From Xiashengella succiniciproducens (lineage in GTDB: Bacteria; Bacteroidota; Bacteroidia; Bacteroidales; Marinilabiliaceae): a stretch of DNA of 40,000 nucleotides. The DNA is taken from assembly GCF_023674465.1 (NCBI RefSeq), contig NZ_CP098400.1:1414801-1454800 (forward strand), written 5' to 3'. Below are positions 1 to 38,210 of the stretch, one piece after another (the stretch's first letter is position 1; each line of letters opens with the position of its first letter). The notes below the pieces were generated by a model. It worked only from the letters and a program-made list of their open reading frames with translations, searched no databases and had not been told where the DNA came from. The translations under genes and the position numbers were made by a program.

Positions 1-10
1 TTGACTAATT

Positions 11-376
11 ATGCCAGCAGGACAAGCACATACTACTTGGTTTCCAGAATTAAAGGATATTCTTAAGAATAAGTGGAATTCAAATTATTCCATTGAACAG
101 CATTTTAGTTTAGTTACCGATTTGAATGAGAAATTACGCCAGATTCGGAAAGAATTGAACATTCAACCCCCTATGATGTGGTGTCCGAATTGCCAAAAAC
201 GACATCGCTCAAGATTTAATGATGTTTCAATAACAGGAATGTATTATGCCCTTAAAAGATTTGAATATTGTGATACTGATGAATTTAATAAGTTGTTAAG
301 AGATTGGAAACAATATTCAAAATCAGAAAATGTTGATATATATGGCAATAAAAAGACTGATAAAAGGGAATTGTAA
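11..376 (+). CDS. Hypothetical protein with a CPNC motif; second gene of a two-gene cassette (copy A, cassette cut by the window edge)
   Basis: 121-aa ORF, identical to the ORF at 19793-20158. It is followed 25 bp later by an attC. No family recognised. Confidence 0.55.
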   Translation: MPAGQAHTTWFPELKDILKNKWNSNYSIEQHFSLVTDLNEKLRQIRKELNIQPPMMWCPNCQKRHRSRFNDVSITGMYYALKRFEYCDTDEFNKLLRDWKQYSKSENVDIYGNKKTDKREL

Positions 377-400
377 AATGGAGATTAAAATAAAGTACGT

Positions 401-534
401 CGGCACAACACGCGTTATAGTGCATGGCTAAATCTCATATTTACTGCAAGTTTCATTCACCGTAGAGTATTCTTAACGGCCAGAAAATACATGCCAAGAC
501 GATTAGCCACGCACCATATCGCCACACGTTAACG
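401..534 (+). repeat. Integron attC site 1
   Basis: R'' CGGCACAAC lies at 401-409. The arms ACGCGTTATAGTGCATGGCTAA and TTAGCCACGCACCATATCGCCACACG pair imperfectly. R' GTTAACG lies at 528-534. Same sequence as attC13 up to the GTT. Confidence 0.8.
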
Positions 535-576
535 GCAAGGTTAAGACTGAAGACTACAAACCTAAATTATTATAAC

Positions 577-1230
577 ATGAGAAGAATTATCTTGATTTTG
601 ATTTTATTTTTACCATTAACAGCCTATTCCCAGTCTGATAGCACAACTATTTATTACAAATGGATTGAAAATAATGACATTCGAAATATTTGTGATATAG
701 CAAATATCCAAATTCAAAAGGTGTTTTGTAAAGACAACTCATTACAAGGGAAAGTATTCAATCTGATTATCAAGGAATTTAAGAAGGGTCGTATCATATC
801 AAGTGAGGATTTAGATATTTCAGCTAGGATAGAAGAGATTCCTATGGTAGTTAATGGAGACACTATGATTTATGTGATAGACTATACTGACAAAACAGGG
901 TTTGGAAAGGCGACTGATTCTTTGACTATTAGTTTTACTGGCATGTTGATTAAAAATAACTTCAAATTGAAAATAAGTTTCCCCGGAATGAGTATTAACA
1001 AAGAATTGAAAGGAAAAAGTCATTATTCTTTAAGAATGGCAAACTCCTGCTCTGATACAAAGATAAGGGTACCTATTAATTCTGAATATCCTATTTTAGC
1101 TTACACTCCCCCATTTGACACAGGTTCTGAACTTAAATCATACTGTATGCTTGGAGAAGAAAATGTACTTGATTGGTATGATAAATTTAATGTAAAACAT
1201 TATTATATAATTTACCTTGAGATTAAATAA
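577..1230 (+). CDS. Hypothetical secreted protein (N-terminal signal peptide)
   Basis: 217-aa ORF with a hydrophobic N-terminus (MRRIILILILFLPLTAYSQ). It is the only ORF in the cassette between attC1 and attC2. Confidence 0.6.
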   Translation: MRRIILILILFLPLTAYSQSDSTTIYYKWIENNDIRNICDIANIQIQKVFCKDNSLQGKVFNLIIKEFKKGRIISSEDLDISARIEEIPMVVNGDTMIYVIDYTDKTGFGKATDSLTISFTGMLIKNNFKLKISFPGMSINKELKGKSHYSLRMANSCSDTKIRVPINSEYPILAYTPPFDTGSELKSYCMLGEENVLDWYDKFNVKHYYIIYLEIK

Positions 1231-1237
1231 AACCCAG

Positions 1238-1368
1238 CCGTTAACACGCGGTATAAAAAATTGCCGGGACAGTAGGTTTATCAAGGGTTGTAGCCCGCTC
1301 GAACTTTTGTGTAATTTGATAGGAGATTCGCCCGCAACCGGCAACATTTCATACCGCCACCGTTATGC
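1238..1368 (+). repeat. Integron attC site 2
   Basis: R'' CCGTTAAC (1238-1245) is the reverse complement of GTTAACGG at 528-535, the start of its own cassette. The arms ACGCGGTATAAAAAATTGCCGG and CCGGCAACATTTCATACCGCCACCG pair. R' GTTATGC lies at 1362-1368. Confidence 0.85.
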
Positions 1369-1410
1369 CCAATTTAAGAACCAAACCCTTAATCAATAAC
1401 TTTTGAAATA

Positions 1411-2932: not shown

Positions 2933-3065
2933 GGGCATAACACGCAATATAACCAATGTCGGGCGCAGTGGCAGCTTGAAAGCGTCTGCTCCGCTCAAAG
3001 TTTTGTAACGGTTGACAGGGATGTCGCCCGCAATCCGCCACTGGTTATATTGCAAACCGTTACCG
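2933..3065 (+). repeat. Integron attC site 3
   Basis: R'' GGGCATAAC (2933-2941) is the reverse complement of GTTATGCCC at 1362-1370. R' GTTACCG lies at 3059-3065. Nearly identical to attC16. Confidence 0.85.
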
Positions 3066-4135: not shown

Positions 4136-4270
4136 GGCGGCAACATCATGTATAAAATATTTGGGGGTTTAGTGGTTACTTGAAGCATTCTGCCCCGTAT
4201 TAGCTTTTGTAACGGCAGACAGTTGCGAAGCCCGCAAACCCCAAACATTTCATACATGTGCTCGTTGTGC
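4136..4270 (+). repeat. Integron attC site 4
   Basis: R'' GGCGGCAAC (4136-4144) matches the reverse complement of GTTACCGCC at 3059-3067 with one mismatch. R' GTTGTGC lies at 4264-4270. It belongs to the CAACATCATGTATAAAA... attC family together with attC11, 14, 15 and 22. Confidence 0.85.
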
Positions 4271-4793: not shown

Positions 4794-4927
4794 ACGCACA
4801 ACAAATGGTATAGTGCATGCGGGTTTCAGCGGTTTGCGAGGGTTTGTGGCTCGTAAAAAAAGTCGGAGTAAACTGATAGGAAATTGCCTCGTAATCCCGC
4901 ACGACACCATACCATCAACCGTTATGC
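4794..4927 (+). repeat. Integron attC site 5
   Basis: R'' ACGCACAAC (4794-4802) is the reverse complement of GTTGTGCGT at 4264-4272. R' GTTATGC lies at 4921-4927. Confidence 0.85.
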
Positions 4928-6125: not shown

Positions 6126-6258
6126 GCAGCATAACATCGCATATACCTAATGGCGGTTTTATTGCACTTTGCAAGGCTTTTCGCCCGCTCAAACTTCACC
6201 ACGGTTTGACAGTTGAATCGTCCGCAATCCGCCACTAGGCATATGCGTAACGTTACCG
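6126..6258 (+). repeat. Integron attC site 6
   Basis: R'' GCAGCATAAC (6126-6135) is the reverse complement of GTTATGCTGC at 4921-4930. The arms ATCGCATATACCTAATGGCGG and CCGCCACTAGGCATATGCGTAAC pair. R' GTTACCG lies at 6252-6258. Confidence 0.85.
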
Positions 6259-7105: not shown

Positions 7106-7237
7106 GGCGGTAACACGCGGTATAGTTAATTGCCGGTGTAGTGCGTATTCGAGCGGCACAGCTCGTATCAAAAGTAGTTGTAACTTGATAGGAAAGTGCT
7201 TCGAAATCGGCAACTAACCATACCGCCAACGTTAGCG
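7106..7237 (+). repeat. Integron attC site 7
   Basis: R'' GGCGGTAAC (7106-7114) is the reverse complement of GTTACCGCC at 6252-6260. The arms ACGCGGTATAGTTAATTGCCG and CGGCAACTAACCATACCGCCAAC pair. R' GTTAGCG lies at 7231-7237. Confidence 0.85.
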
Positions 7238-7269: not shown

Positions 7270-8433
7270 ATGAGAAAATATTTATACATAGCATTTTCGA
7301 TTTTGATAAACTGTTCAGTGTTTGGACAAGTTGATTCCCAAACAGATTCAGTATCATTTGATAAGATAACTTGTCGTTTTAAAGAAACTAAAGGTTGGAA
7401 CATTTTTTCAGGAGAACTTAAAGACTCGATTGATACAACATTTTTATATCAGACAAAAGACTTTAATGTTTCGATTAGTGAAAATCCGATTGCATTTAAA
7501 ACTTTTCATTCAGTAATTAAAAATCCATATTTTACAGATGATTTCGGCGATTATGATAACAATTATGTTAATTACCCAGTTTCATATTCTGTAATATATG
7601 ATAACAGATTACTGTCATTATTCCGTAATGGAAAATTTGTTTGTCATAGATTATCCAACTTTGAAAGAGACTTGGATTTTGAGACAAAACTAAATACTCG
7701 TAAATTCAAATATCACTGGATTATAAATGATAAGCTAGGAGCAATATCTGGAAATTCAATTTTCATCTGGAATGGTACTGATTGGATTAGTAATAAAACA
7801 GACTTTCCACTGAAGAGTCAGCCAAAACTATTTGAGGATAGTGATTTTGTTGTGTTTGGTGATTGCCATGGAGAATGGGGAGGAACTGTTTACTTCTTTG
7901 ATAAAAATAACGGAGAAACTTATTTTACTGAATCTACTTGTGCTAATTCTGTTCTAAAAAAAGGAGATAGTTATTTAGTTCTAGCACATTTAGGGCATAT
8001 GACTGGTTCTACAGAGATAAAGGAGGTAAAAGACCCTCGTAAATTAACTCAAGCAAAACAAGCGGAGATTAATAAGACAAAGAATGGACAAGCCTTAGGA
8101 TATACAGATTCATCAAAGGCGTATGAAACAATACTCGATTATTGGGGAATTCAATTATTTTCTACTTTCAGTTACAAGGATAGACAATTATATATGGTTC
8201 ATTTAAATGAAATGACTTTTCTTGCAGAGATTGTTGGAAATGACATTCAGATTGTAAATCCTCTTTTTGATAATGAGATTTATACTCATGACCCAGTGAC
8301 AAATAAGTATGAAAACTACACTTTAATGAATTTAGACCATTATGGTACAGCAAGAGATAAAGAAATATCAGTTATTATAATTGATGGTGAAAGATTAATA
8401 AAACTAGATTGGAATGAGAACCACAGCCGCTAA
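7270..8433 (+). CDS. Hypothetical secreted protein
   Basis: 387-aa ORF with a signal-peptide-like N-terminus (MRKYLYIAFSILINCSVFGQ). Its TAA stop (8431-8433) lies inside the R'' box of attC8. Confidence 0.6.
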   Translation: MRKYLYIAFSILINCSVFGQVDSQTDSVSFDKITCRFKETKGWNIFSGELKDSIDTTFLYQTKDFNVSISENPIAFKTFHSVIKNPYFTDDFGDYDNNYVNYPVSYSVIYDNRLLSLFRNGKFVCHRLSNFERDLDFETKLNTRKFKYHWIINDKLGAISGNSIFIWNGTDWISNKTDFPLKSQPKLFEDSDFVVFGDCHGEWGGTVYFFDKNNGETYFTESTCANSVLKKGDSYLVLAHLGHMTGSTEIKEVKDPRKLTQAKQAEINKTKNGQALGYTDSSKAYETILDYWGIQLFSTFSYKDRQLYMVHLNEMTFLAEIVGNDIQIVNPLFDNEIYTHDPVTNKYENYTLMNLDHYGTARDKEISVIIIDGERLIKLDWNENHSR

Positions 8434-8558
8434 CACACAATATAGCAAATTGGGGCTGAGTAGGTTACGTCAACTTTTTGTTTACAAATCGGCTTCATCA
8501 ACGGTGGATAAAGACGCGTTCCAAAATCCCCAACTTGCCATATTGTAAAACGTTAGCC
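8426..8558 (+). repeat. Integron attC site 8
   Basis: R'' GCCGCTAAC (8426-8434) is the reverse complement of GTTAGCGGC at 7231-7239. R' GTTAGCC lies at 8552-8558. Confidence 0.85.
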
Positions 8559-8574
8559 GCAATTCCCCCTATTC

Positions 8575-8806
8575 CAAAGACATTGACTACTTAAGCTAAC
8601 GGGGTAAAATTTCGATAGAACTGTGTATTTTTGAAGCCTCTATGCAAGGCCGATTTTTAAAATGTTACTTTTAAGTACGAGCGCAATTCTGGTTGAGATG
8701 TTTGCGATGACTACAGTGGCGGTCCTATTTTTTTGGGAACCCCGTTCAGAATATTTACTCTGCCTAAAGCACATCTCCATAGAGACCACACCTAAAAAAA
8801 AGTTTT
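8575..8806 (+). ncRNA. Candidate IS110 bridge (guide) RNA region in the 5' non-coding leader
   Basis: A long non-coding stretch lies directly upstream of the IS110-type recombinase gene, where IS110-group elements are known to encode their bridge RNA. I did not fold it, so the extent is approximate. Confidence 0.3.
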
Positions 8807-10165
8807 ATGGAGAATGATTCTATTTCGATGAAAATCATCAACCCAAAGGCTGCTGGTATTGATATTGGGAGTCGGTCACATTGGGTTGCCATTGGTCAGG
8901 AAGATAAAGATGTTCGAGAATTTGGAGTTTTTAATGAAGATCTTTATGATTTAGCCCAATGGTTAACTGAAAACCAAATCCGGACAATTGCCATGGAGAG
9001 TACAGGCACATACTGGCAAAACCTTTATGCAGTGCTCATGGCCCAGGGATTTGAAGTAATCCTCTGCAATGGAAAATTTACTAAAAACATCAAAGGAAAA
9101 AAGACCGACATCAAAGATTGTCAATGGATTCAAAGACTTCATTCCTTGGGTTTATTGAGCAGCAGTTTTTTACCAGATGTTCAAACCGAGCAACTTCGTA
9201 CCTATTGTAGACACAGGGCGAATTTACTTCACATGGTAGCATCAACCTCAAAGAAAATGCAAAAGTACCTTCGGCTTCTAAATTTAAGATTAGATGTTGT
9301 TGTAAAAGATATTTGCGGACTTACTGGTCTAAAAATCATCCGAAGCATTTGCCAAGGTGAAACAAATCCCCGCAAACTGGCAGAGCTTCGACATTTCAAC
9401 TGCAGACGTTCTGAAGATGAAATCGCCCGAGCTCTTCAATCCAATGGACGACAAGATTACCTGTTTGCCCTTAAACAAGAGCTTGAGACATACGACCATC
9501 TACAATTAAAGATCTCCCAATGCGACATCGAAATTGAACAGCTCCTGAATCAAATCATAGAAAATGATGACAATAAGAAGCAGCACTGTATAGATCCTAA
9601 ATCATATAAGCGCATCAACAAAAACACGCCTAAAAATATCGATTTAAACCTGAAGGCATATCAACTCCTTGAAGGAATCGATCTGCTTGCTATAGAAGGA
9701 ATGAGTTATGGCACTGTTTTAGCTCTTATCAGTGAAGTTGGACTGGAAGGTATTAAACGATTCCCTTCAGCCAAACATTTTGCCAGCTGGCTTAGATTGG
9801 CTCCAAACAACAAGATTAGCGGCGGAAAGGTGCTCTCAAGCAAAGTGCCAAAAGGCAGCAATCGATTGAAAATAGCATTGAGAAATGCAGCAAATGCCAT
9901 TGGTAATCTGAAGGACTCTACCCCATTGAGGGATTTCTTTCATCGGGTTAACTTCAGAAAAGGCAGAACTTCTGCCATCAGTGCTACTGCCCGGAAACTA
10001 GCAGTCATTATTTGGAATATGGTGGTCAATAACACCCAATACATCAACCCTGAAGGGTATCTCTTTCTTGACCAAAAAAGAAAGCTCGGATTAACCAAAA
10101 GAATCAAAAAACAAATAGATAAATTTGGACTAAACCCTGAAGATCTTGGATTTTCAATTACCTGA
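8807..10165 (+). CDS. IS110-family (DEDD/RuvC-like) transposase
   Basis: 452-aa ORF. The N-terminus (AAGIDIGSRSHWVAIG, AMESTGTYW) matches the DEDD_Tnp_IS110 pattern. The C-terminal domain (SWLRLAPNNKISGGK) is typical of the family. The true start may be the Met at 8828. Confidence 0.85.
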   Translation: MENDSISMKIINPKAAGIDIGSRSHWVAIGQEDKDVREFGVFNEDLYDLAQWLTENQIRTIAMESTGTYWQNLYAVLMAQGFEVILCNGKFTKNIKGKKTDIKDCQWIQRLHSLGLLSSSFLPDVQTEQLRTYCRHRANLLHMVASTSKKMQKYLRLLNLRLDVVVKDICGLTGLKIIRSICQGETNPRKLAELRHFNCRRSEDEIARALQSNGRQDYLFALKQELETYDHLQLKISQCDIEIEQLLNQIIENDDNKKQHCIDPKSYKRINKNTPKNIDLNLKAYQLLEGIDLLAIEGMSYGTVLALISEVGLEGIKRFPSAKHFASWLRLAPNNKISGGKVLSSKVPKGSNRLKIALRNAANAIGNLKDSTPLRDFFHRVNFRKGRTSAISATARKLAVIIWNMVVNNTQYINPEGYLFLDQKRKLGLTKRIKKQIDKFGLNPEDLGFSIT

Positions 10166-10212
10166 TTTTCAATGACAAAATTTTACGTTAGTCAGAATTA
10201 AAAGGAAGAAAT

Positions 10213-13514: not shown

Positions 13515-13596
13515 GTGGCATATATTAAAAAAATATCAAGAAGAATTTAGGATCACCAGTAAAAACCTGTGGAATTAAACTCTGTATCAAGCATTA

Positions 13597-15055: not shown

Positions 15056-15084
15056 GCTAAACACATGTTTTTGCGGGTGATCCA

Positions 15085-15249: not shown

Positions 15250-15251
15250 AA

Positions 15252-15813: not shown

Positions 15814-15817
15814 AGAG

Positions 15818-23483: not shown

Positions 23484-23616
23484 GCTAAACACATGTTTTT
23501 GCGGGTGATCCTCGAAATGCCAAACGTTTCATACACGTAAACGTTGCCAACAAGTTAAAAAGAGACAATCCCTTGTTTCCTGAGAAAGAAACTTTTATCT
23601 TTGAATAAAAAGCAAA

Positions 23617-26271: not shown

Positions 26272-26296
26272 TGAAGTGCATCGATTTGTATAACAA

Positions 26297-26330
26297 GAGC
26301 CGGATGAGCTGAGAGGTTCAAGTCCGGTTC
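26297..26330 (+). ncRNA. Group II intron domain V (catalytic hairpin)
   Basis: GAGCCGGATGAGCTGAGAGGTTCAAGTCCGGTTC is 34 nt long. It has the AGC triad and a GAGCCGGA / TCCGGTTC helix with one G-U pair. Confidence 0.85.
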
Positions 26331-26419
26331 TGTGAGAGGCTTAGGAGGAAGTTCCCTTTGCCTACTCGACCCGCCACCGTTGTGTTGCATATTAAAAGAC
26401 AGATTGCTACAATGAAAAT

Positions 26420-27105: not shown

Positions 27106-27239
27106 GCAACACAACAAACAATATAACCAATGTCGGTCGCAGTGGTGGCTTGAAAGCGTCTGCCCCGCTCAAAGTTTTGTAACGGTTGACAGTGATGTCG
27201 CCCGCAAACCGCCACTGGTTATATTGCAAACCGTTAGCG
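27106..27239 (+). repeat. Integron attC site 16
   Basis: R'' GCAACACAAC (27106-27115) is the reverse complement of GTTGTGTTGC at 26379-26388. R' GTTAGCG lies at 27233-27239. The interior is nearly identical to attC3. Confidence 0.85.
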
Positions 27240-29345: not shown

Positions 29346-29479
29346 ACCGCTAACAGGCGTTTGGCTCAATGGCGGGTGACGTGGTTAATTGAACATTGTA
29401 CCTCGCATCAACTTTTGTGGTGTATTGACAGTTTTGTGCTCCGAAACCCGCCACTGCGCCAAGCGCCAAAACGATAGTG
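29346..29479 (+). repeat. Integron attC site 17 with a mutated crossover triplet (GAT instead of GTT)
   Basis: R'' ACCGCTAAC (29346-29354) is the reverse complement of GTTAGCGGT at 27233-27241. The arms AGGCGTTTGGCTCAATGGCGGG and CCCGCCACTGCGCCAAGCGCCAAAAC pair. The R' position reads GATAGTG (29473-29479). Confidence 0.8.
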
Positions 29480-30781: not shown

Positions 30782-30914
30782 GCCACTAACAGCGGTTTGG
30801 CAAAAGTGGCGGTTCAGTTCTTCGTATGACAGTTTATCGTAAATTTGAAGAGTGTGCTTCGTATGAACATTTGTGGTAAAATCGCCACCTTCGCCAAGCC
30901 GCGAAACGTTACCA
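30782..30914 (+). repeat. Integron attC site 18
   Basis: The reverse complement of R'' GCCACTAAC (30782-30790) is GTTAGTGGC. The cassette start instead reads GATAGTGGC (29473-29481). R' GTTACCA lies at 30908-30914. Confidence 0.85.
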
Positions 30915-30990: not shown

Positions 30991-31626
30991 ATGTGGATTG
31001 ATGACCAACAAGTCCTTGCAGCGAAATTGGACTATGTGAGTGGAATTGCTGTATTTGATGAGATACTTGATGGAAAGACGCTCAAGGAAATAGATGCAGT
31101 AATTCATCTTGAAAAATATCCGAAAGGACTTCTTTTCAAAATAGCGAGGGGTTTTGGTGGAATAATAACACATCCATTTCCAGTTGCGAAAAATGAAATC
31201 AAACAAGTCGTACTTGCTGAGTCAACTGAAAGTAGTGGAAAATTGACATTTGACTTGACTGATGGGAATAAAATTGAGTTCGATATTAAGAAAGGAAAAC
31301 TTTGGGAAGTTAAGGACTTTTTTAAAGAGATTAAACTCAATTACGAAATAGAGAAAACTAAGAAACCAGTTATACCAACAGAAAAGAAGCCTGTAAGCAC
31401 ACAAAAACATGGTGTTCCTACTTTGATTTCATTTTTTGTGCCAGGCGTAGGACAACTAATCAAAGGACATATAATGAAAGCTATTGGAATTTGGGTAATT
31501 GGCGGACTTGTTGGATTTTTCCTCTGGTGGACATTTATAGCACCATTCATTGTATGGGTTTGGAATGTATATGATGCCTATAATTCTAATGCGGACTGGG
31601 GCGCTGGTGATGCTCGGGCATCTTGA
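30991..31626 (+). CDS. Hypothetical membrane-anchored protein; the 3' end runs into a G+C-rich insertion
   Basis: 211-aa ORF with a soluble N-domain and two C-terminal TM helices (TM2-like). The last 12 or so codons (...NADWGAGDARAS) lie beyond the composition shift at about 31591. Confidence 0.6.
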   Translation: MWIDDQQVLAAKLDYVSGIAVFDEILDGKTLKEIDAVIHLEKYPKGLLFKIARGFGGIITHPFPVAKNEIKQVVLAESTESSGKLTFDLTDGNKIEFDIKKGKLWEVKDFFKEIKLNYEIEKTKKPVIPTEKKPVSTQKHGVPTLISFFVPGVGQLIKGHIMKAIGIWVIGGLVGFFLWWTFIAPFIVWVWNVYDAYNSNADWGAGDARAS

Positions 31627-34200
31627 TTGTGAGTGGCTTGACTTTTTTGTCGGGATGGGTTATATTGGGGCTTATTGCTTTAATAACCTTTACTCTGCCC
31701 TGCTGATGGCTCGTTTATTTGTCTTTCCTGTTTTGCATAAGGGGTGTCGTCGCCTCGCTTTGAAGCCGGATGCTTATTTGCCGGATTCTGATTTTAATGT
31801 TATTACGCGTGGTTTGCCTGGGCGTGCCTATAGTAAATCTTTGAGGTGTTGGCATGTGCCGTTTCGGGAGAATTACCGCCATTGGCTGAGTGAGGTGTAT
31901 GAACGGGCTGCTGATTTGGAACTTGTTTTTGGGGATGGGGGAAAGGTGGCTGAACGGGATGATAAACCGGAAAAAGCTATGGATGCAGATGTACATTCAC
32001 TTGTGGAAAGTCCAACTGAAATTAGGGTTGCGGATGATGTTTCCGTTGCTTCAGAGCTGCTTGCGAGGGTGCTGGTGGATAAGGTGAATAAGAGGTTTTA
32101 TGTTGAGCACAGTTATCATTCTGCTGTTTTTAACTCTTTGGCTCGTTTAAATGTAGGGACCTATGTGTCGACCGACCGTCGTTGGGTTTTTCCGGGCGAT
32201 AATGTGATTTATTTGCAGGTGCTGGATGTTTTGAAGGGGTTTGGCTTTAAACCACGGGTGCTTACGTTGGAGAAATCTGCTGAGCCAGCTGCTCTCCCGG
32301 CTGGTTTTGAGCTGCCAGTCAGGCGGTTTGATGAGGCGATGTTGTTGCGTCGTTTGAGCTTTCGAACGCAGGAAATTTACAAGAGTTGTTTTCTTCTTTT
32401 TTTGAAGGATCATCAGGGCAGGATTGTTGATGAGTTGACTTACAGTGAATTGTATGGCTATTTGAAGCGGCAGTCTGTTCTGCTGTCTTCAACGCAGCTT
32501 AAGCAAATGATTGCTGCGGTAAAGTTTTATTATGAGCGGACGCTGGGCAGGGACAAGATGTTTTTTCCGCTGGCGGAAAAAACGGAGGTGCGAAAATCTA
32601 CGCTCTTCCTTCCGTATGCCGAAATTCGCTCTTTGCTGGATGGAATTGCTTCGCCCGGCGATAGGATGTTGCTCTTCCTGGTGTATCATGCCAATCTGCC
32701 CTTAAACCAAATTTGTGCTTTGCCGAAGGATGCGGAGAACCTTTTTGAGGAGGACTGCCGTATGCCGGGGAATAATGAGTTGGCCTTGGCTTATTATGCC
32801 GATTTGGTTGCGGAGTTGAAACGGACTTATGACCTGGCGACTTTTTTGTTGGAGGACAAGGGGGTGCCTTATTCTGTGGAGTCGTTAAAGGGGAAGTTGT
32901 ACCGGATTTTGGGGCATTATCGCTTGGAGGAAATTTATCGGAAGCAATATGAGGTAATTTTGAAGCAGAGTAGCTTGAGCTCGAAGACGCAGGTGATGTA
33001 CCTGGGTGCTTTTATGCGGTTTTTGGATTATTACAATTATAAGCACCCGGCTTTTATTAAGGACGATGAGGTGCGTGATTACCTGTTGTTGCACCGGGGG
33101 AAGTCGAGTGCTCACCAGGACAACCTGGTGAGCAGTTTTAAGTTCTTTTTTGAACGCATCCATAATCATACGCTTTCGGACAAGCATGTGGTGCGTCCCC
33201 GAAAGGGTTTTTATCTGCCCGACTTTTTTTCTCTGTCGGAGATTTCGGCCATGCTTAACACGACCGACAATTTAAAGCATAAGCTGCTGATTGCCATCGG
33301 TTACACCGCTGGTTTGCGCCGTTCTGAAATACGTAATTTGCGCTTATGTGATGTGGATTTGAAGCGCAATTTGCTGTTTATTAAGGATTCGAAGGGTAAA
33401 CGCGACCGCTATACTTTGTTTTCGCAGCACTTGCATGAATGGCTCAAATCTTATTTGAATCAGGCAAAGCCCAAAGTTTTTCTTTTTGAGGGCCCTAGTC
33501 CCGGTACGCAATACAGTACCACCAGTATGGCGGTAATTTTAAAGAAGATGGCCAAGGCTGCCGGCATTAAACGAAAGGTGCATATGCATATGCTGCGACA
33601 TAGTTTTGCTACGCATTTATTGGAAGAAGGTCGCGATGTCAGGTACGTGCAGGAGCTGCTTGGACATAAAAGCATCAAAACCACGGAGCGTTATACGCAT
33701 GTAGTAAGTGATGCGCTGCTTAATGTAGCCAGTCCCTTCGACCGTATGGTTGCCCAAACAGGTTTTGCTGGTAAAAAGCCCCACAGCCCACCTTAATGCG
33801 CATAGCTTTTTTTGCCTTCTCCTTTGTAGGTTGCATTCGGTTTGCCACCTACCCGATGTTGTTCTTTCTGCTTCAATAGCCTGAAGGGAGTAGTTTGTGC
33901 TATGCAATTTTTCGCTTTACTGGTCGATTATTTGACTTTTTGTTGCGCTAATTGCTCCTATTATATGCCGATGTCTTGCCTTTGTGTGTTGTATTGTGCT
34001 GTTGTTTATTGATTTGAGTGTTTAGTAAGAGTCATTAATTTAATATTGCAAATGTTAATAATTTTTGCAATTATTGTATGGTGATTTACACCGACCTAAT
34101 TCCTTAACCTGGCCGCAATGTGACTGAGGAAGACGAAGTCGTGCCAAGATTCAGTGTTTTGAACTTGCAACTCGTTTGTTTTGCACTTTAAGCTCTCTTT
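31591..34200 (+). mobile_element. G+C-rich inserted island carrying a long tyrosine recombinase (boundaries approximate, right end uncertain)
   Basis: Composition shifts sharply at about 31590. The host cassette has lost its expected R'' box (GTGTGGTAAC is absent). The palindrome ATTGCAAA...TTTGCAAT lies at 34045-34071. Confidence 0.5.
31706..33796 (+). CDS. Long tyrosine recombinase/integrase (about 696 aa) with an N-terminal domain, two SAM-like core-binding segments and a catalytic domain
   Basis: The start is taken at the Met at 31706, because the 31550 start overlaps the previous gene. The N-terminus VFPVLHKGCRRLALKP...LRCWHVPF resembles Bacteroidota integrase N-domains. The catalytic domain has AGLRRSEIRNL, KGKRDR, HMLRHSFATHLL and LLGHKSIKTTERYTHV. 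Confidence 0.75.
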   Translation: MARLFVFPVLHKGCRRLALKPDAYLPDSDFNVITRGLPGRAYSKSLRCWHVPFRENYRHWLSEVYERAADLELVFGDGGKVAERDDKPEKAMDADVHSLVESPTEIRVADDVSVASELLARVLVDKVNKRFYVEHSYHSAVFNSLARLNVGTYVSTDRRWVFPGDNVIYLQVLDVLKGFGFKPRVLTLEKSAEPAALPAGFELPVRRFDEAMLLRRLSFRTQEIYKSCFLLFLKDHQGRIVDELTYSELYGYLKRQSVLLSSTQLKQMIAAVKFYYERTLGRDKMFFPLAEKTEVRKSTLFLPYAEIRSLLDGIASPGDRMLLFLVYHANLPLNQICALPKDAENLFEEDCRMPGNNELALAYYADLVAELKRTYDLATFLLEDKGVPYSVESLKGKLYRILGHYRLEEIYRKQYEVILKQSSLSSKTQVMYLGAFMRFLDYYNYKHPAFIKDDEVRDYLLLHRGKSSAHQDNLVSSFKFFFERIHNHTLSDKHVVRPRKGFYLPDFFSLSEISAMLNTTDNLKHKLLIAIGYTAGLRRSEIRNLRLCDVDLKRNLLFIKDSKGKRDRYTLFSQHLHEWLKSYLNQAKPKVFLFEGPSPGTQYSTTSMAVILKKMAKAAGIKRKVHMHMLRHSFATHLLEEGRDVRYVQELLGHKSIKTTERYTHVVSDALLNVASPFDRMVAQTGFAGKKPHSPP

Positions 34201-34289
34201 CTAGGTTCTTCTGTTTCCTCATAACCAAATATATCTATTTTGTCTATATCCTCGTTACATGAGGCACTTACACTTATATTTCCCTCCTT

Positions 34290-34333
34290 ACATAATACTC
34301 CTAAACGCAATAGCGTTTATTTGGGTGTTGTAC
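34290..34333 (+). repeat. Right-end remnant of attC site 19
   Basis: R' GTTGTAC (34327-34333) is supported by the R'' ACGGTACAAC of attC20, which matches it as a reverse complement at 9 of 10 positions. The left half with the expected R'' was not found. Confidence 0.5.
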
Positions 34334-35175: not shown

Positions 35176-35317
35176 ACGGTACAACATGCTGTGATACGGC
35201 AGCCGGGGCTCCACAGCATATAGTGGGTTTCGTTCTCGCCCGTCAGTCGCGCTTGGCCTGAAATTTTCGTAACTGGCAGAAATGCCCCGGCCGACCGCAT
35301 ACAGCCGGGCGTTAGCA
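35176..35317 (+). repeat. Integron attC site 20 (G+C-rich, 142 bp)
   Basis: R'' ACGGTACAAC (35176-35185) pairs with GTTGTACCGC at 34327-34336 (9 of 10). The arms ATGCTGTGATACGGCAGCCGGGG and CCCCGGCCGACCGCATACAGCCGGGC pair. R' GTTAGCA lies at 35311-35317. Confidence 0.8.
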
Positions 35318-35912: not shown

Positions 35913-36158
35913 GTGTGCTAACAGGTCGGTATATGTCATTGGCTTCTGTGCCGCGAGAATTTTCTGGTTTAAAAAGACTAGTATTGTGGCTGGCGGCACA
36001 GGCTGCCCCGGCTCTCGCCGGGGACCCCCGCTGGTGTCACGGTTTTTGCCAACGCGAGAATAAACAAAACAACATCATAACCCTGCATCGCACCACGAGT
36101 GCAAAAACACGCGCCACCGCGACTCTGCGCCAACGCCACATACCGCCGAACGTTGCCA
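35913..36158 (+). repeat. Integron attC site 21 (long form, 246 bp, paralog of attC12)
   Basis: R'' GTGTGCTAAC (35913-35922) is the reverse complement of GTTAGCACAC at 35311-35320. R' GTTGCCA lies at 36152-36158. The right-hand ~120 bp are almost identical to attC12. Confidence 0.8.
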
Positions 36159-36186
36159 ACCATTTAAAAAAAACTACAGTACTAAT

Positions 36187-37407
36187 ATGAAACAGATTTT
36201 AATAATGGGATTGATATTCATATCCCAGCTTGGATTTTCACAGATAAAGGAATTAAATCCGACATCAACAAGACAATTAGATTTGAGTGTTGCAGGGGAA
36301 AAAGAATTCAATGACAATCTTGAAGCCTGCAAAAAGATTTGGGATAAAATGTCAAATGGTGTAAAATATGACGATTTATCACAGCAAGAAAAAGACGCTC
36401 TTTCTAAAGTTGATGAAACTATGGAAGACTACTGGGATATTATCGGAGGAGGTTGCAGTTGGTATTGTGGAGGAGGCCCGAAAGAGGTTACTGCATCTAG
36501 TTATTTAAAATCACAAGGAGAAAATAATTACGAACCTAAAAATGCACATGATTTAAACTATAAAAATGTTTGGGTTGAGGGTGTTGACGGTTATGGTATT
36601 GGAGAATACCTTTTATATACATTTAGCGGAACTTCCCCAAGAATAAATGAAATAATTGTTGTAAATGGATATGTAAAAAGTAAAACGGCTTGGGAGAACA
36701 ACTCACGAGTTAAAAAACTGAAAGTTTACATTGATGACAAACCATATGCAATACTGAACCTTAAAGATATTCGAGGTTCACAGAGTTTTAAGATTGAGCC
36801 AATAGGGAATAGCGACAGAAAGAATTGGGATATGCTTAAAACAAAACCTGATTGGACTTTGAAATTTGAAATACTGGATGTTTACAAAGGACTAAAATAT
36901 GATGACGTTGTAATTTCAGAAATCTATTTTGACGGACTTGATGTTCATTGTTTTGCAAAAGGCACAGAAATCAAATTAGCCGATAACACCATCAAAAGCA
37001 TTGAAGACTTACAAGTCGGTGATTTGGTTGCTTACATGGATTTTGATACTAAAACTATAAAATCTGCCAAAATTGAGAAAACGGAAAAAGTAATACATCA
37101 TGGACTTGTAACTTACCGATTTGAAAGCGGATTGACAATAACTTCAACTCAAGACCATCCTTTCAAAATTGACAATAAAGGTTGGGCTTCCCTAAAGCCT
37201 GATAAATCAAATCAATACAAAGGATTTGAAAACATTGACAAAATAAAAATTGGTGACTTCTTTATAGCAGAAAACGGAACAGAAAAACTGGTTTCGATTG
37301 ACTATTTAGAAGGAGAACAAGAAACTTGGACGATTTCAAAACTAAGTTCAGGTGATAATTTTATAGCAAACGGACTTATTGTTGGGGTCGAAGAATTAAA
37401 CGATTGA
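36187..37407 (+). CDS. Secreted protein with a glycan-binding-like (discoidin/NADase-type) domain and a C-terminal Hint (bacterial intein-like) domain
   Basis: 406-aa ORF with a signal peptide. It has a central YLLYTFSG...VVNGYVKS...VKKLKVYIDD segment. The Hint domain starts at HCFAKGTEIKLADNT, has a TSTQDHPF block and ends ...FIANGLIVGVEELND. Confidence 0.65.
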   Translation: MKQILIMGLIFISQLGFSQIKELNPTSTRQLDLSVAGEKEFNDNLEACKKIWDKMSNGVKYDDLSQQEKDALSKVDETMEDYWDIIGGGCSWYCGGGPKEVTASSYLKSQGENNYEPKNAHDLNYKNVWVEGVDGYGIGEYLLYTFSGTSPRINEIIVVNGYVKSKTAWENNSRVKKLKVYIDDKPYAILNLKDIRGSQSFKIEPIGNSDRKNWDMLKTKPDWTLKFEILDVYKGLKYDDVVISEIYFDGLDVHCFAKGTEIKLADNTIKSIEDLQVGDLVAYMDFDTKTIKSAKIEKTEKVIHHGLVTYRFESGLTITSTQDHPFKIDNKGWASLKPDKSNQYKGFENIDKIKIGDFFIAENGTEKLVSIDYLEGEQETWTISKLSSGDNFIANGLIVGVEELND

Positions 37408-37416
37408 ACTATAAAC

Positions 37417-37553
37417 GGTTGGCAACATCATGTATAAAATATTGGGGGTTTATGTGTGTATAGGCAACTCCACTCCCCGTAGCAAATTAATTAACGGCAG
37501 ACAATAACGTCGCTCGCAAGCCCCCAACAATTTCATACATGTGACCGTTGTGC
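37417..37553 (+). repeat. Integron attC site 22
   Basis: R'' GGTTGGCAAC (37417-37426) is the reverse complement of GTTGCCAACC at 36152-36161. R' GTTGTGC lies at 37547-37553. It is the intact paralog of the intron-split attC15. Confidence 0.85.
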
Positions 37554-37574
37554 GTCATACAGAGAAAACCACAA

Positions 37575-38069
37575 ATGGAAAGATTTGAGCTAAACAAATA
37601 TGCTGTTGATGGAAGTCCTCTTATTATGATTTTCACTGAAGGTACTATCTTTGGGCCAAAACGTTTTATTGACTTTTTTAATGTGAAAAAATACGTGCCA
37701 ATCAAAAATTGCATTGATAAGATTAAAAAATGGAATAGACAAGGAGCTCAAATCATTTACCTTACTTCGAGAAAAAGTGAAACTTCAGCACAAACCATAA
37801 AAGATTTATTGATAAGATATAAATTTGTTGGTGCTTATTTATATTATAGGACTGGTTCAGATAAGTATAAAGATATTGTAGAATCGCTCAAGCCAGATAT
37901 ATTAATTGAGGACAATTGCAGGAGTATAGGTGGTGCTTGGCAGATGTCAATAACATATGTAGACAAGAATATTAAAGAAAATATTAAATCCATAATTATC
38001 AAAGAATTTAAGGGTATTGATTATTTACCTGATAATTTGATTGATTTGATGAAATATGAAATAAAATAA
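37575..38069 (+). CDS. Hypothetical protein, possibly a HAD-like hydrolase (copy 2)
   Basis: Identical product to 4292-4786. Confidence 0.55.
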   Translation: MERFELNKYAVDGSPLIMIFTEGTIFGPKRFIDFFNVKKYVPIKNCIDKIKKWNRQGAQIIYLTSRKSETSAQTIKDLLIRYKFVGAYLYYRTGSDKYKDIVESLKPDILIEDNCRSIGGAWQMSITYVDKNIKENIKSIIIKEFKGIDYLPDNLIDLMKYEIK

Positions 38070-38076
38070 TGTACGA

Positions 38077-38210
38077 ACGCACAACAAATGGTATAGTGCA
38101 TGCGGGTTTCAGCGGTTTGCGAGGGTTTGTGGCTCGTAAAAAAAGTCGGAGTAAACTGATAGGAAATTGCCTCGTAATCCCGCACGACACCATACCATCA
38201 ACCGTTAGGC
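38077..38210 (+). repeat. Integron attC site 23 (same attC as site 5)
   Basis: R'' ACGCACAAC (38077-38085) is the reverse complement of GTTGTGCGT at 37547-37555. R' GTTAGGC lies at 38204-38210. Confidence 0.85.

What the first reader, a model, noticed from the sequence alone, without database searches (positions are those of the whole stretch)
1..38210. The window is a large integron-type cassette array (23 attC sites) with no integrase in view
Imperfect palindromes of about 130 bp (exceptions 61, 142, 246 and 247 bp) follow nearly every ORF or ORF pair. Each begins ...AAC and ends GTT.... In all 21 testable cassettes, the 8-10 bp ending in AAC at the left of the site is the reverse complement (0 or 1 mismatch) of the GTT-led bases that open that same cassette. 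One example is CCGTTAAC at 1238 against GTTAACGG at 528. Another is GCAACACAAC at 27106 against GTTGTGTTGC at 26379. That pattern is the signature of units that were once circles closed by recombination at G|TT. All cassette ORFs are co-oriented, and TA modules are interspersed as in sedentary chromosomal integrons. Arrays this large are best known from Vibrio and other Proteobacteria. One in what looks like a Bacteroidota genome, carrying this much mobile DNA, deserves characterisation, and the cargo is mostly unknown genes.
Basis: partly seen in the sequence, partly recalled or inferred. Interest (0 to 1): 0.8.

Follow-up and report, generated by a model that had tools for sequence, protein, structure and literature searches.

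The report
Bacteroidota integron-like array with non-canonical integrase
The window is a real, very large gene-cassette array of the integron type from a Marinilabiliaceae (Bacteroidota) genome, but it does carry its own recombinase: an unusual 696-residue, IntI-related enzyme that lacks the integron-integrase hallmark domain, which places it with a little-studied Bacteroidota family of gene-capture systems.

Summary
I found 21 attC-like sites (not 23), all co-oriented. The 7 variable bases before each AAC are the reverse complement of the start of the same cassette: 13 mismatches in 140 positions, against 92±7.5 in shuffled pairings. One cassette (529-1362) occurs in six other contigs, and homology breaks exactly at G|TT on both sides.

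An integrase candidate is in view: a 696-aa tyrosine recombinase (31706-33796, + strand), followed by an attI-like junction at 34327. Seventeen cassettes lie upstream of it and at least five downstream.

Relatives of this recombinase (about 375 aa in Flavobacteriaceae, about 690 aa in Marinilabiliales) sit directly upstream of co-oriented arrays. In 14 of 15 loci tested, the first attC "remembers" a GTT junction just after the recombinase stop codon.

- The enzyme's best structural and sequence match is VchIntIA, but it lacks the IntI-specific insertion.
- The sites lack extrahelical bases and have an asymmetric spacer.
- Their bottom strand carries conserved G·T wobbles.

The closest described system is rAID-1 of gut Bacteroidales. 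I rate this a new variant of a known kind.

The parts
403..534 (+). attC-like site 1 (R'' ...GCACAAC, R' GTTAACG). It is identical to site 12 except for its R' tail.
   Evidence: Model R1 gives 87 bits on the bottom strand. Sequence read.
529..1362 (+). Cassette 2: a 217-aa ORF of unknown function (577-1230) plus attC site 2 (1239-1368).
   Evidence: The same unit is found in six other contexts, L001-L006. Homology starts at G|TTAACGG and ends at G|TT. R1 gives 108 bits for the site.
2935..3065 (+). attC-like site 3. It closes cassette 1363-3059, which carries a 505-aa thioredoxin/redoxin-like protein (1411-2928).
   Evidence: R1 121 bits. Pfam. R'' is complementary to the cassette start with 0 mismatches.
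4138..4270 (+). attC-like site 4. It closes cassette 3060-4264, which carries two unknown ORFs of 157 and 150 aa.
   Evidence: R1 103 bits. Complementarity.
4796..4927 (+). attC-like site 5. It closes cassette 4265-4921 (HAD-like). This cassette is duplicated at 37548-38204.
   Evidence: R1 102 bits. Direct repeat D3 at 99% identity. Pfam.
6129..6258 (+). attC-like site 6. It closes cassette 4922-6252 (M28 peptidase, 4949-6115).
   Evidence: R1 108 bits. Pfam.
7108..7237 (+). attC-like site 7. It closes cassette 6253-7231 (224-aa unknown ORF).
   Evidence: R1 118 bits.
8428..8558 (+). attC-like site 8. It closes cassette 7232-8552 (387-aa unknown ORF).
   Evidence: R1 102 bits.
8553..15380 (+). 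Cassette 9, swollen by three insertion sequences. It holds an IS110-family transposase (8807-10165), a PDC-S46 candidate anti-phage ATPase (10213-12231), an IS4-type DDE transposase (12228-13397, - strand), ISL3 copy 1 (13550-15083, target duplication AGAATTTA), and attC site 9 (15254-15386).
   Evidence: Pfam. PADLOC PDC-S46, 777 bits. Direct repeat D1. R1 89 bits for the site. R'' is complementary to GTTAGCCGC at 8552.
15381..18441 (+). Cassette 10: a Gp49/HigB-like toxin and an HI1420-type antitoxin (15514-16102). Its attC site 10 is split at R'' (GCACCATAA|) by an IS91-type element at about 16118-18305. That element carries a truncated Y2 transposase (16405-17205, - strand) and a 304-aa tyrosine recombinase (17299-18213, - strand).
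   Evidence: Pfam and NCBIfam. R1 gives 73 bits for the right part, 18309-18441. The same element is present in L001.
19137..19380 (+). attC-like site 11, the long variant (244 nt). It closes cassette 18436-19374 (169-aa unknown ORF).
   Evidence: Its arms have the same geometry as the other sites. R'' has 0 mismatches to the cassette start. R1 does not detect it.
20185..20316 (+). attC-like site 12. It closes cassette 19375-20310 (ORFs of 124 and 121 aa). A copy of this cassette lies at the start of the window (1-530).
   Evidence: R1 84 bits. Direct repeat D2 at 100% identity.
21877..23549 (+). attC-like site 13, split by ISL3 copy 2 (21978-23511, target duplication TCGAAATG). It closes cassette 20311-23543 (473-aa Sde182-type nucleoside-hydrolase-like protein).
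   Evidence: R1 gives a partial hit at 21904-21977.
24308..26385 (+). attC-like site 14, split by a group II intron (24423-26370, + strand; reverse transcriptase/maturase at 25021-26271). It closes cassette 23544-26379 (Gp49 toxin plus HTH antitoxin).
   Evidence: Rfam RF01999 and RF00029. TIGR04416, 403 bits. Intron boundaries.
27109..27239 (+). attC-like site 15. It closes cassette 26380-27233 (DnaJ-domain protein).
   Evidence: R1 116 bits. Pfam.
29348..29479 (+). attC-like site 16, with a degenerate R' (GAT in place of GTT). It closes cassette 27234-29473 (P-type ATPase).
   Evidence: R1 94 bits. Pfam..
30784..30914 (+). attC-like site 17, the last site upstream of the recombinase. It closes cassette 29474-30908 (ArsR regulator plus MerT-HMA).
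   Evidence: R1 73 bits. Pfam.
30991..31626 (+). A 211-aa ORF of unknown function. It lies between the R' junction at 30908 and the recombinase, and has no attC of its own.
   Evidence: It is followed directly by the recombinase in all 16 contigs that carry it. No Pfam or NCBIfam hit.
31706..33796 (+). A 696-aa tyrosine recombinase, the candidate integrase of the system. Its layout is two small alpha/beta modules (aa 1-75 and 118-187), a degenerate core-binding plus partial catalytic copy (about aa 196-400), then an active core-binding domain (408-485) and catalytic domain (510-685).
   Evidence: Pfam and NCBIfam. Best PDB match is VchIntIA 2a3v, by sequence at E 1e-30 and by fold at E 1e-10. 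Family alignment A2. Model with pLDDT 76. Internal duplication. No IntI insertion.
33797..34333 (+). Conserved non-coding platform that ends in an attI-like site: palindrome AAACGC-AATA-GCGTTT, then ATTTGGGT, then the crossover G|TT at 34327.
   Evidence: Conserved in L013 and L002, and partly in L004 and L014. R'' of site 18 (CGGTACAAC) is the exact reverse complement of GTTGTACCG at 34327.
35179..35317 (+). attC-like site 18, a divergent G+C-rich site. It closes the first cassette after attI (34328-35311: a 90-aa ORF and a 161-aa PNPOx-like protein).
   Evidence: R1 25 bits, E 2.5e-4. Pfam.
35916..36158 (+). attC-like site 19, the long variant (243 nt) and a relative of site 11. It closes cassette 35312-36152 (DUF1287).
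   Evidence: (D9, D11, D13).
37420..37553 (+). attC-like site 20. It closes cassette 36153-37547 (406-aa NADase_transloc plus Hint-domain protein).
   Evidence: R1 92 bits. Pfam.
38079..38210 (+). attC-like site 21. It closes cassette 37548-38204 (the HAD-like duplicate).
   Evidence: R1 101 bits.
38205..40000 (+). A further cassette that runs off the window. It holds an IS30 transposase fragment (38471-39052, - strand) and the start of an MFS transporter gene.
   Evidence: L007-L012 share 38202-40000 at 100% identity, and homology breaks at the G|TT. Two more attC-like sites follow beyond the window end.

Best explanation
The window holds a sedentary chromosomal gene-capture system that works like an integron but is not a canonical one. 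Each cassette is one or two promoterless-looking ORFs plus a 130-nt (sometimes about 245-nt) imperfect palindrome. Cassettes are excised as circles and re-inserted by a tyrosine recombinase that cuts at G|TT in the 3' box (R') of the site.

The recombinase is most likely the 696-aa protein encoded at 31706-33796. It reads towards a double-stranded attI-like site, a short palindrome followed by 5-8 nt and then G|TT at 34327, where new cassettes enter. Seventeen older cassettes lie upstream of this platform and at least five lie downstream.

The attC-like sites are probably used as folded single strands, and the folded strand is probably the bottom one. That strand forms a continuous 19-20-bp stem with three conserved G·T wobbles, which are A·C mismatches on the top strand. 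The crossover also lies at the bottom-strand AAC.

Recognition must differ from that of IntI. The enzyme lacks the IntI insertion that grips extrahelical bases, and the sites have no such bases. The enzyme instead carries extra N-terminal modules. In the Marinilabiliales these include a degenerate second recombinase-like module, which might occupy the non-cleaving position on the hairpin.

Shown here: cassette structure, crossover point, cassette mobility between contexts, linkage of recombinase, attI and array across genomes, covariation in the sites, and absence of the IntI insertion.

Inferred, not shown: that this recombinase catalyses the reaction, the single-strand mechanism, and the role of the N-terminal modules.
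For: Cassette logic:
- R'' is the reverse complement of the start of its own cassette: 13 mismatches in 140 positions, against 91.7 ± 7.5 in shuffled pairings.
- Cassette 529-1362 is found in six contexts, and homology breaks at G|TT on both sides.
- The same holds at 38204 and at 30908 and 34327 when the window is compared with L002.

Site structure:
- RNAalifold on the bottom strand predicts 24 pairs, 16 of them with compensatory changes.
- On 66 distinct sites from many contigs, 95.5% of cells are paired and 18 of 24 pairs show double changes. The covariation score is 0.536, against 0.133 in shuffles and at most 0.10 when partners are slid.
- G·U wobbles are invariant or nearly so at three positions of the bottom strand.
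- The model scores 70-121 bits on the bottom strand and 8-19 bits on the top strand.
- Single-stranded DNA folding favours the bottom strand in 7 of 8 sites.

Recombinase linkage:
- Full-length relatives occur in Marinilabiliales: Anaerophaga, Alkalitalea, Natronoflexus, Labilibacter and Marinilabilia.
- In L013 and L014 the recombinase lies between core genes and a co-oriented array.
- Model R1 finds arrays downstream of and co-oriented with the recombinase in 14 loci, including six loci that carry a 375-aa relative (five Flavobacteriaceae, one Bacteroidales MAG). In those loci only one weak hit (E 0.097, in L030) lies upstream.
- In 14 of 15 loci the 9-nt reverse complement of the first attC's R'' occurs with 0 mismatches between the recombinase stop codon and that attC. 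Just 5' of that junction lies a small palindrome in most of these loci.

Recombinase identity:
- The best PDB match is the integron integrase VchIntIA, by sequence and by fold.
- The catalytic motifs are conserved.
Against: - No experiment links this recombinase to the sites.
- In the window, 17 of the 22 cassettes lie upstream of the recombinase, which insertion at attI alone does not explain.
- One related array (L004) has the attI-like sequence but no adjacent recombinase.
- A second tyrosine recombinase, linked to IS91, sits inside the array.
- I could not scan the host genome for a canonical intI.
- No promoter was identified upstream of attI.
- The difference in single-strand folding energy between the strands is modest, and one site of eight favours the top strand.
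- The domain arrangement of the model is uncertain (pTM 0.40).
Confidence: 0.75

Rival explanations
1. This is a canonical integron array (a CALIN, or the distal part of a complete integron). Its true IntI lies upstream of position 1 or elsewhere in the genome, and the 696-aa recombinase is a passenger.
For: - The sites use the AAC/GTT boxes and the crossover point of integrons.
- The window starts inside the array, so its upstream end is unseen.
- Seventeen cassettes lie upstream of the 696-aa recombinase.
Against: - The recombinase, attI and array are linked in 14 loci from two orders, each with an exact memory of the attI junction.
- The sites lack extrahelical bases and the 5-6-nt symmetric spacer.
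- A proxy model of class-1 attCs finds nothing in the window better than E 1.4.
- The window-type model finds no class-1 attC.
- In L013, L020 and L022, where 10 kb upstream of the recombinase was fetched, R1 finds no attC there; in L013 the upstream genes are core genes, and its array begins at the recombinase.
- IntegronFinder 2.0 reported only Salinibacter as a complete integron in Bacteroidetes.
Confidence: 0.1
2. The arrays are built by another recombinase acting in trans. Candidates are the 304-aa tyrosine recombinase carried with the IS91-type transposase inside the array, or the host Xer system.
For: - An IS91-type element with its own tyrosine recombinase is inserted exactly at an R'' box (16118) and recurs in related arrays such as L001.
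- In the Bacteroides array L044, a Y2 transposase gene occupies the first cassette position.
- L004 has an array but no adjacent large recombinase.
Against: - The IS91-type element is absent from most of the arrays examined: the gene tables of L013 and L014 show none, and the Flavobacteriaceae loci were not annotated for it. It interrupts a site rather than flanking an attI.
- Its transposase is truncated here: 266 aa, against 394 aa in L001.
- Only the 375-aa/690-aa recombinase family shows a fixed position and orientation next to the junction that the first cassette remembers.
Confidence: 0.08
3. The palindromes are ordinary intergenic repeats (REP- or MITE-like elements, or terminators), and the gene order is static, so this is not a recombination system.
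For: - They are intergenic hairpins placed after ORFs, where terminators also lie.
- z-scores of single-strand folding are modest for some sites.
Against: - Identical cassettes appear in different contexts with breakpoints at G|TT.
- R'' matches the previous R', not the R' of its own site.
- Cassettes are duplicated within the array.
- The stem shows strong covariation with fixed G·T positions.
Confidence: 0.02

Closest known systems
Classical integrons (class 1 mobile integrons and sedentary chromosomal integrons of Vibrio; IntI + attI + attC cassettes)
   Same: - Cassettes consist of ORF(s) plus an imperfect palindrome with AAC...GTT boxes.
- The crossover is at G|TT of R', so R'' matches the start of its own cassette.
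- An attI sits next to the recombinase gene.
- The array is large, co-oriented and mostly of unknown function, with toxin-antitoxin modules, duplicated cassettes, and IS and group II intron insertions in the sites.
- The strand asymmetry favours folding of the bottom strand.
- The recombinase's nearest solved relative is VchIntIA.
   Different: - The recombinase lacks the IntI-specific insertion of about 40 aa and falls below the TIGR02249 cut-off.
- It has a 100-aa (Flavobacteriaceae) or 420-aa (Marinilabiliales) N-terminal extension.
- It is co-oriented with the cassettes instead of divergent.
- The attC-like sites have no extrahelical bases, and their spacer is 1-2 nt against 4-5 nt rather than 5-6 on both sides.
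- The group II intron is in the sense orientation relative to the cassettes.
- The host phylum is one in which integrons are reported as nearly absent.
rAID-1 (recombinase-associated acquired interbacterial defence) clusters of gut Bacteroidales (Ross et al. 2019; bioRxiv 10.1101/471110)
   Same: [quoted passage not shown]
- The recombinase of a Bacteroides finegoldii array of this type (L044) is 38% identical to the catalytic half of the window's enzyme.
- That array obeys the same rule that R'' matches the previous R'.
   Different: - Sites are about 46 nt with AAC...CCA|TTA there, and 130 nt with AAC...G|TT here.
- Cargo there is orphan immunity genes (Imm43, Imm-NTF2 and PoNi in L044). Here it is metal resistance, peptidase, redoxin, toxin-antitoxin, a defence candidate and unknowns, with no Imm family hit.
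- The recombinase is 377 aa there and 696 aa here, with an internal duplication.
- The hosts here are environmental Marinilabiliaceae from anaerobic digesters.
[quoted passage not shown]
   Same: It is a long run of attC-like sites with no IntI-type integrase gene nearby.
   Different: - A related recombinase is present and linked to the array.
- Whether IntegronFinder's attC model accepts these sites is untested.
Xer/XerA-type simple tyrosine recombinases
   Same: - The core-binding and catalytic domains score close to NF040815 (XerA/integron integrase): 207 bits against a cut-off of 220 for the window enzyme, and 221-243 bits for the Flavobacteriaceae relatives.
- There is no insertion in the catalytic domain.
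   Different: - These proteins are not placed at a dif-type site. They are fixed next to cassette arrays.
- They carry family-specific N-terminal domains.

Membership tests
Integron (canonical) | Integrase of the IntI clade, carrying the IntI-specific additional domain inserted in the catalytic domain | tested here: not met
   - TIGR02249 gives 184 bits against a cut-off of 265, in two stretches.
- VchIntIA residues 186-246 correspond to only 19 residues here.
- The 41-aa IntI1 insertion is absent from all eight Bacteroidota recombinases aligned.
Integron (canonical) | Cassettes are bounded by recombination at G|TT of R', so R'' is complementary to the start of its own cassette | tested here: met
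Integron (canonical) | An attI site next to the integrase gene, where cassettes are inserted | tested here: met
   The junction lies at 34327, 531 bp after the stop codon. An exact 9-nt memory of the junction is found in the first attC of 14 of 15 loci, and most junctions are preceded by a small palindrome. Function as an attI is inferred.
Integron (canonical) | attC has extrahelical bases on the R''-L'' arm and an unpaired central spacer of 5-6 nt on each arm | tested here: not met
   Under the same arm-alignment script, six class-1 attCs show 2-3 single-base bulges and roughly equal spacers. The window sites show no conserved bulge and a spacer of 1-2 nt against 4-5 nt.
Integron (canonical) | Sites are accepted by the IntegronFinder attC covariance model | tested here: inconclusive
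   IntegronFinder is not available here. A proxy model of 7 class-1 attCs found held-out lnuF and oxa2, found dfrA14 only marginally, and missed the 114-nt arr-3 site. It found nothing in the window better than 10.7 bits, E 1.4. The reverse test was also negative.
Integron (canonical) | The bottom strand folds preferentially and is the recombined strand | tested here: met
   In silico only. Three positions carry conserved G·T wobbles on the bottom strand. The model scores 70-121 bits on the bottom strand and 8-19 bits on the top strand. Minimum free energy is better for the bottom strand in 7 of 8 sites. The crossover lies at the bottom-strand AAC.
Integron (canonical) | A Pc promoter in or near intI that drives the cassettes | tested here: inconclusive
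   No Bacteroidetes-type TTTG...TAnnTTTG motif occurs in 33797-34400. No expression data are available.
rAID-1 (Ross et al. 2019) | [quoted passage not shown] | not testable with these tools
   The reference sequence is not held. Identity to the recombinase of the Bacteroides finegoldii array L044 is 38% over the catalytic half, so the criterion is probably not met.
rAID-1 (Ross et al. 2019) | Two or more co-directional downstream genes separated by repetitive intergenic sequences | tested here: met
   The repeats are of a different length and sequence class from those in L044.
rAID-1 (Ross et al. 2019) | Cargo of orphan immunity genes with a G+C content of 41% or less | tested here: not met
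   No immunity-protein family was found among about 40 ORFs. G+C in 1-kb blocks ranges from 24 to 47%. L044, by contrast, carries Imm43, Imm-NTF2 and PoNi.
Group IIC-attC introns | Inserted in the bottom strand of attC, that is, antisense to the cassette genes | tested here: not met
   The intron at 24423-26370 is on the + strand, the same strand as the cassette ORFs. The canonical orientation is taken from PMC3001079.

The most novel reading that the evidence does not exclude
Bacteroidota possess their own widespread lineage of integron-like gene-capture systems. The lineage includes the rAID-1 polyimmunity arrays of gut Bacteroidales, arrays in marine Flavobacteriaceae, and this Marinilabiliaceae super-array. 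It is driven by an IntI-related tyrosine recombinase that never acquired, or has lost, the IntI hairpin-gripping domain. It acts on attC-like hairpins without extrahelical bases. In Marinilabiliales the enzyme has become a fused 'pseudo-dimer', whose degenerate N-terminal recombinase module may take the non-catalytic position on the folded site. Such systems would be missed as complete integrons by intI-based surveys, and whether attC-model surveys detect their sites is untested.
Probability: 0.55. Interest if true: 0.85.

Novelty: new variant of a known kind. Interest (0 to 1): 0.72.

Why it matters
Integrons are held to be rare or absent in Bacteroidota, and surveys define them by the IntI-specific domain and a proteobacterial attC model. 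This locus shows the full integron logic with neither hallmark: circularisable cassettes, a G|TT crossover, an attI next to the recombinase, and bottom-strand hairpins.

The same architecture recurs in Marinilabiliales, in Flavobacteriaceae and, in miniature, in the rAID-1 arrays of gut Bacteroides. If confirmed, three things follow.

- The taxonomic and mechanistic range of integron-type gene capture becomes wider.
- rAID-1 gains a mechanistic basis.
- There is a natural test of how a tyrosine recombinase recognises folded DNA without extrahelical bases.

It would also open a large, unexplored cassette pool, here including metal resistance, toxin-antitoxin modules and a candidate anti-phage gene, in a phylum that dominates gut, marine and digester communities.

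Tried and rejected
- Rfam holds no attC family. Its gathering-threshold scan gave only the two group II intron hits.
- My first automatic palindrome finder was too strict and found 3 sites. I replaced it with manual anchoring and a covariance model.
- The first shuffle test used two coordinates that were off by 1-3 nt. The corrected test is.
- A search for a Bacteroidetes-type promoter upstream of attI was negative.
- The supplementary tables of IntegronFinder 2.0 are stored truncated and gave no information on Bacteroidota CALINs.
- The proxy canonical attC model missed a 114-nt genuine attC. Its negative result on the 130-nt window sites is therefore not decisive.
- The regex registration of the short Bacteroides elements was faulty. 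I replaced it with a register-free test.
- Fold search of the full model returned only tyrosine recombinases. The N-terminal modules found no match.
- PADLOC recognised only one of ten cassette proteins tested.
- I rejected the idea that the sites are flipped relative to the ORFs, that is, that the top strand is recombined. The asymmetric spacer and the sense-oriented intron suggested it. However, the homology breakpoints lie at R', not R'', and the G·T wobbles are on the bottom strand.

Full report
**1. What is in the window**

The + strand carries a nearly unbroken series of co-oriented ORFs. They are separated by imperfect palindromes of about 130 bp that begin ...AAC and end GTT... (intergenic dump). 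I anchored 21 such sites.

- Eighteen sites are intact. Sixteen measure 130-134 nt, one is 139 nt, and two are long variants of 243-244 nt.
- Three sites are split by insertions:
  - an IS91-type element at the R'' box of site 10;
  - an ISL3 copy with an 8-bp target duplication in site 13;
  - a group II intron in site 14.
A model search with filters off and E up to 5 shows nothing more.

**2. Is the signature more than chance?**

For 20 cassettes I compared the 7 variable bases before AAC with the reverse complement of the 7 bases after the GTT that opens the same cassette. There are 13 mismatches in 140 positions. In 100,000 shuffled pairings the mean is 91.7, the sd 7.5 and the minimum 54. 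The same R'' boxes compared with the R' of their own site give 100 mismatches in 147. This is the pattern left by units that were once circles closed inside R'.

Other assemblies give direct evidence of movement.

- The 217-aa protein of cassette 2 is encoded with identical sequence on at least 23 contigs, including a biogas-fermenter metagenome. In six contexts the homology to the window runs from about 526-528 to about 1365-1369 and stops there.
- The six upstream sequences differ from one another. Four are different attC-like sites and two are an attI-like sequence. All converge at G|TTAACGG.
- The same kind of break is seen at 38204, and at 30908 and 34327 when the window is compared with L002.
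- The crossover therefore lies at R', as in integrons, and not at R''.

**3. Structure of the sites**

The bottom strand has this consensus:

- an R box, N-AAC-G paired with T-GTT-N;
- an asymmetric internal loop, 4-5 nt on the 5' side and 1-2 nt on the 3' side;
- a 19-20-bp stem.

Of the 24 predicted pairs, 16 show compensatory changes among 14 window sites. I built a covariance model, R1, from these sites. It recovered 72 sites in the window and related contigs.

On the 66 distinct sequences:
- 95.5% of cells are paired;
- 18 of 24 pairs show double changes;
- the covariation score is 0.536, against 0.133 in shuffles and at most 0.10 when partners are slid.

Three positions are invariant or nearly invariant G·U(T) wobbles on the bottom strand, and hence A·C mismatches on the top strand. 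In line with this, R1 scores 70-121 bits on the bottom strand and 8-19 bits on the top strand. Single-stranded DNA folding favours the bottom strand in 7 of 8 sites.

Genuine class-1 attCs show a different geometry under the same arm-alignment script. I used arr-3, aac(6')-Ib, aadA2, lnu(F), aac(6')-IIc and dfrA14, taken from plasmids. They carry 2-3 single-base bulges on the R''-L'' arm and spacers of roughly equal length. The window sites have neither feature.

Two model tests compared the site classes.
- R1 finds no class-1 attC.
- A proxy model of seven class-1 attCs finds the held-out lnu(F) and oxa2 sites. It finds dfrA14 only marginally and misses the 114-nt arr-3 site.
- In the window it finds nothing better than 10.7 bits, E 1.4.
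- This second test is therefore negative but not decisive.

**4. An integrase candidate is in view**

ORF 31706-33796 (+) encodes a 696-aa tyrosine recombinase.

- Its best match among solved structures is the integron integrase VchIntIA, by sequence (E 1e-30) and by fold (E 1e-10, 28% identity).
- The match comes in two pieces. IntI residues 186-246 correspond to only 19 residues here.
- I aligned IntI1 with the window enzyme and seven relatives. I recalled the IntI1 sequence from memory and verified it as 100% identical to plasmid intI1 genes. The 41-residue IntI-specific insertion is absent from all of them.
- TIGR02249 scores 184 bits against a cut-off of 265.
- The protein has about 420 extra N-terminal residues. 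The AlphaFold model (pLDDT 76) shows two small alpha/beta modules followed by helical domains.
- Residues of about 196-340 align with the core-binding domain and the start of the catalytic domain of the 376-aa Flavobacteriaceae relative (E 5e-5). The catalytic Arg motif is missing from this stretch, so it is a degenerate internal duplicate.

**5. The attI-like site and the link between recombinase and array**

The 533 bp after the stop codon are conserved in L013 (Marinilabiliaceae bacterium ANBcel2, 89% protein identity) and in L002, up to ...AAACGCAATAGCGTTTATTTGGGT|GTT. Beyond that point the sequences diverge into different cassettes.

- R'' of the next site (CGGTACAAC at 35185) is the exact reverse complement of GTTGTACCG at 34327.
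- In L013 and L014 the recombinase lies between core or unrelated genes and a co-oriented array.
- A scan of species-representative genomes found full-length relatives only in Marinilabiliales-type taxa. It found shorter relatives elsewhere in Bacteroidota, and these are about 375 aa in Flavobacteriaceae.
- R1 finds arrays downstream of and co-oriented with the recombinase in 14 loci. In those loci only one weak hit (E 0.097, in L030) lies upstream.
- In 14 of 15 loci the 9-nt reverse complement of the first attC's R'' occurs with no mismatch between the stop codon and that attC.
  - It lies 39-47 bp after the stop in five Flavobacteriaceae loci and one Bacteroidales MAG, and 135 bp after it in L038.
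  - It lies 300-855 bp after the stop in Marinilabiliales-type loci.
  - In most of these loci it lies just after a small palindrome.
  - About 0.004 chance matches would be expected per locus.
- This is strong comparative evidence that this family is the cognate recombinase. No experiment has tested it.

**6. What remains odd**

- Seventeen cassettes lie upstream of the recombinase.
- The unit 30909-34326 comprises a 211-aa ORF, the recombinase and the attI-left sequence. It is itself bounded by two G|TT junctions. The 211-aa ORF always accompanies the recombinase in this lineage.
- One reading is that a circle carrying the platform entered an older array by attI x attC recombination. Another is that two integron-like elements lie in tandem. 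The window cannot decide between them.
- L004 has the last 108 bp of the attI region and an array, but no recombinase remnant.

**7. Cargo and residents**

Cargo:
- a redoxin-like protein, an M28 peptidase and HAD-like proteins;
- a DnaJ-domain protein and a P-type ATPase;
- ArsR plus MerT-HMA;
- a PNPOx-like protein and DUF1287;
- a NADase_transloc/Hint protein;
- two Gp49/HTH toxin-antitoxin pairs;
- a PDC-S46 candidate defence ATPase (777 bits);
- many proteins of unknown function.

Two cassettes are duplicated within the window.

Mobile DNA inside the array includes IS110, IS4-type, two ISL3 copies, an IS91-type element with its own tyrosine recombinase, an IS30 fragment and a group II intron.

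**8. Comparison with what is known**

- Functionally this is an integron. By membership it fails two defining features, the IntI insertion and attC with extrahelical bases. It also differs in gene orientation.
- IntegronFinder 2.0 reports only Salinibacter as a complete integron in Bacteroidetes. A 2024 preprint lists Bacteroidota among clades previously found without integrons. I found no paper on integrons in Marinilabiliales.
- The closest described system is rAID-1 of gut Bacteroidales. It has a 5' XerD-like recombinase, co-directional orphan immunity genes, and intergenic repeats that the authors call 'reminiscent of integrons'. I found no later mechanistic work on it in the library.
- One of my loci, L044 from Bacteroides finegoldii, is such an array:
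  - it has a 377-aa recombinase and Imm43, Imm-NTF2 and PoNi cargo;
  - its elements are about 46 nt, of the form AAC...CCATTA;
  - it obeys the same rule that R'' matches the previous R', for 12 of 18 boxes against 1.2 in controls.
- The window's system is therefore a distinct branch of the same broad class. It has long AAC/GTT sites, general cargo and an enlarged, internally duplicated recombinase.

**9. Verdict**

Two parts of the interpretation are wrong: 'no integrase in view', and the implied canonical membership.

I rate it a new variant of a known kind, with interest 0.72. The main uncertainties are:
- the lack of any experimental link between enzyme and sites;
- the unexplained upstream array;
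- the limits of the literature I could search.

Noticed in passing
window 24423-26370: A group II intron (416-aa reverse transcriptase/maturase) sits inside attC site 14. It is on the same strand as the cassette ORFs, whereas published group IIC-attC introns are antisense. L002 carries the same intron at the same relative position, 8-9 nt 5' of G|TT, in a different attC.
   Followed up: partly
window 24308-24422 and 26371-26385: The two halves of attC site 14 do not match each other. The 3' flank of the intron (CCGCCACC) belongs to another attC type, as in sites 2 and 7. This suggests recombination between intron copies, or a 3' exon that was carried along.
   Followed up: no
window 16118-18305: An IS91-type element is inserted exactly at the R'' box of site 10. 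It carries a truncated Y2 transposase and its own 304-aa tyrosine recombinase, which also resembles IntI/XerA and lacks the insertion. An intact copy is in L001. In the Bacteroides array L044, a Y2 transposase gene occupies the first cassette position after the recombinase.
   Followed up: partly
window 8553-10165: An IS110-family transposase gene starts about 250 bp after the R' of site 8. Some IS110/IS1111 elements are known, from my own knowledge, to target attC sites. I did not map the IS ends.
   Followed up: no
window 13550-15083 and 21978-23511: There are two identical ISL3 copies, each with an 8-bp target duplication (AGAATTTA and TCGAAATG). One lies inside a cassette and the other inside an attC.
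   Followed up: yes
window 29473: The R' of site 16 reads GAT instead of GTT, while the R'' that remembers it (site 17) still ends in AAC. The R' box is probably mutated, which may have fixed this junction.
   Followed up: no
window 10213-12231: A 672-aa ATPase matches the PADLOC candidate defence family PDC-S46 over its full length (777 bits). It sits inside a cassette that is riddled with insertion sequences.
   Followed up: partly
window 36187-37407: A 406-aa protein carries a NAD-glycohydrolase translocation domain and a Hint/AXH module but no recognisable toxin domain. It resembles the N-terminal part of a polymorphic toxin. I recall that toxin fragments are also reported in rAID-1 clusters, but I did not check this in the paper.
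   Followed up: no
window 1-530 = 19783-20312; 4239-4927 ~ 37522-38210: Whole cassettes are duplicated within the array, at 100% and 99% identity. The second pair lies on opposite sides of the recombinase.
   Followed up: partly
L004 9847-9954: An attI-like sequence with the 217-aa cassette in first position, but with no recombinase gene or remnant upstream. The neighbours are an esterase and an ABC transporter gene.
   Followed up: partly
window 30909-31705: A 211-aa ORF with no family match always precedes the recombinase in this lineage (16 contigs). It is absent upstream of the 89%-identical recombinase in L013. Its role is unknown.
   Followed up: partly
L013 12619-17498: The first cassette after attI in Marinilabiliaceae bacterium ANBcel2 is 4.7 kb long. 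It carries an HTH protein, two DNA methyltransferases (one of them Eco57I-like, 920 aa) and a RAMA-domain protein, so a restriction-modification-type module appears to travel as one cassette.
   Followed up: no
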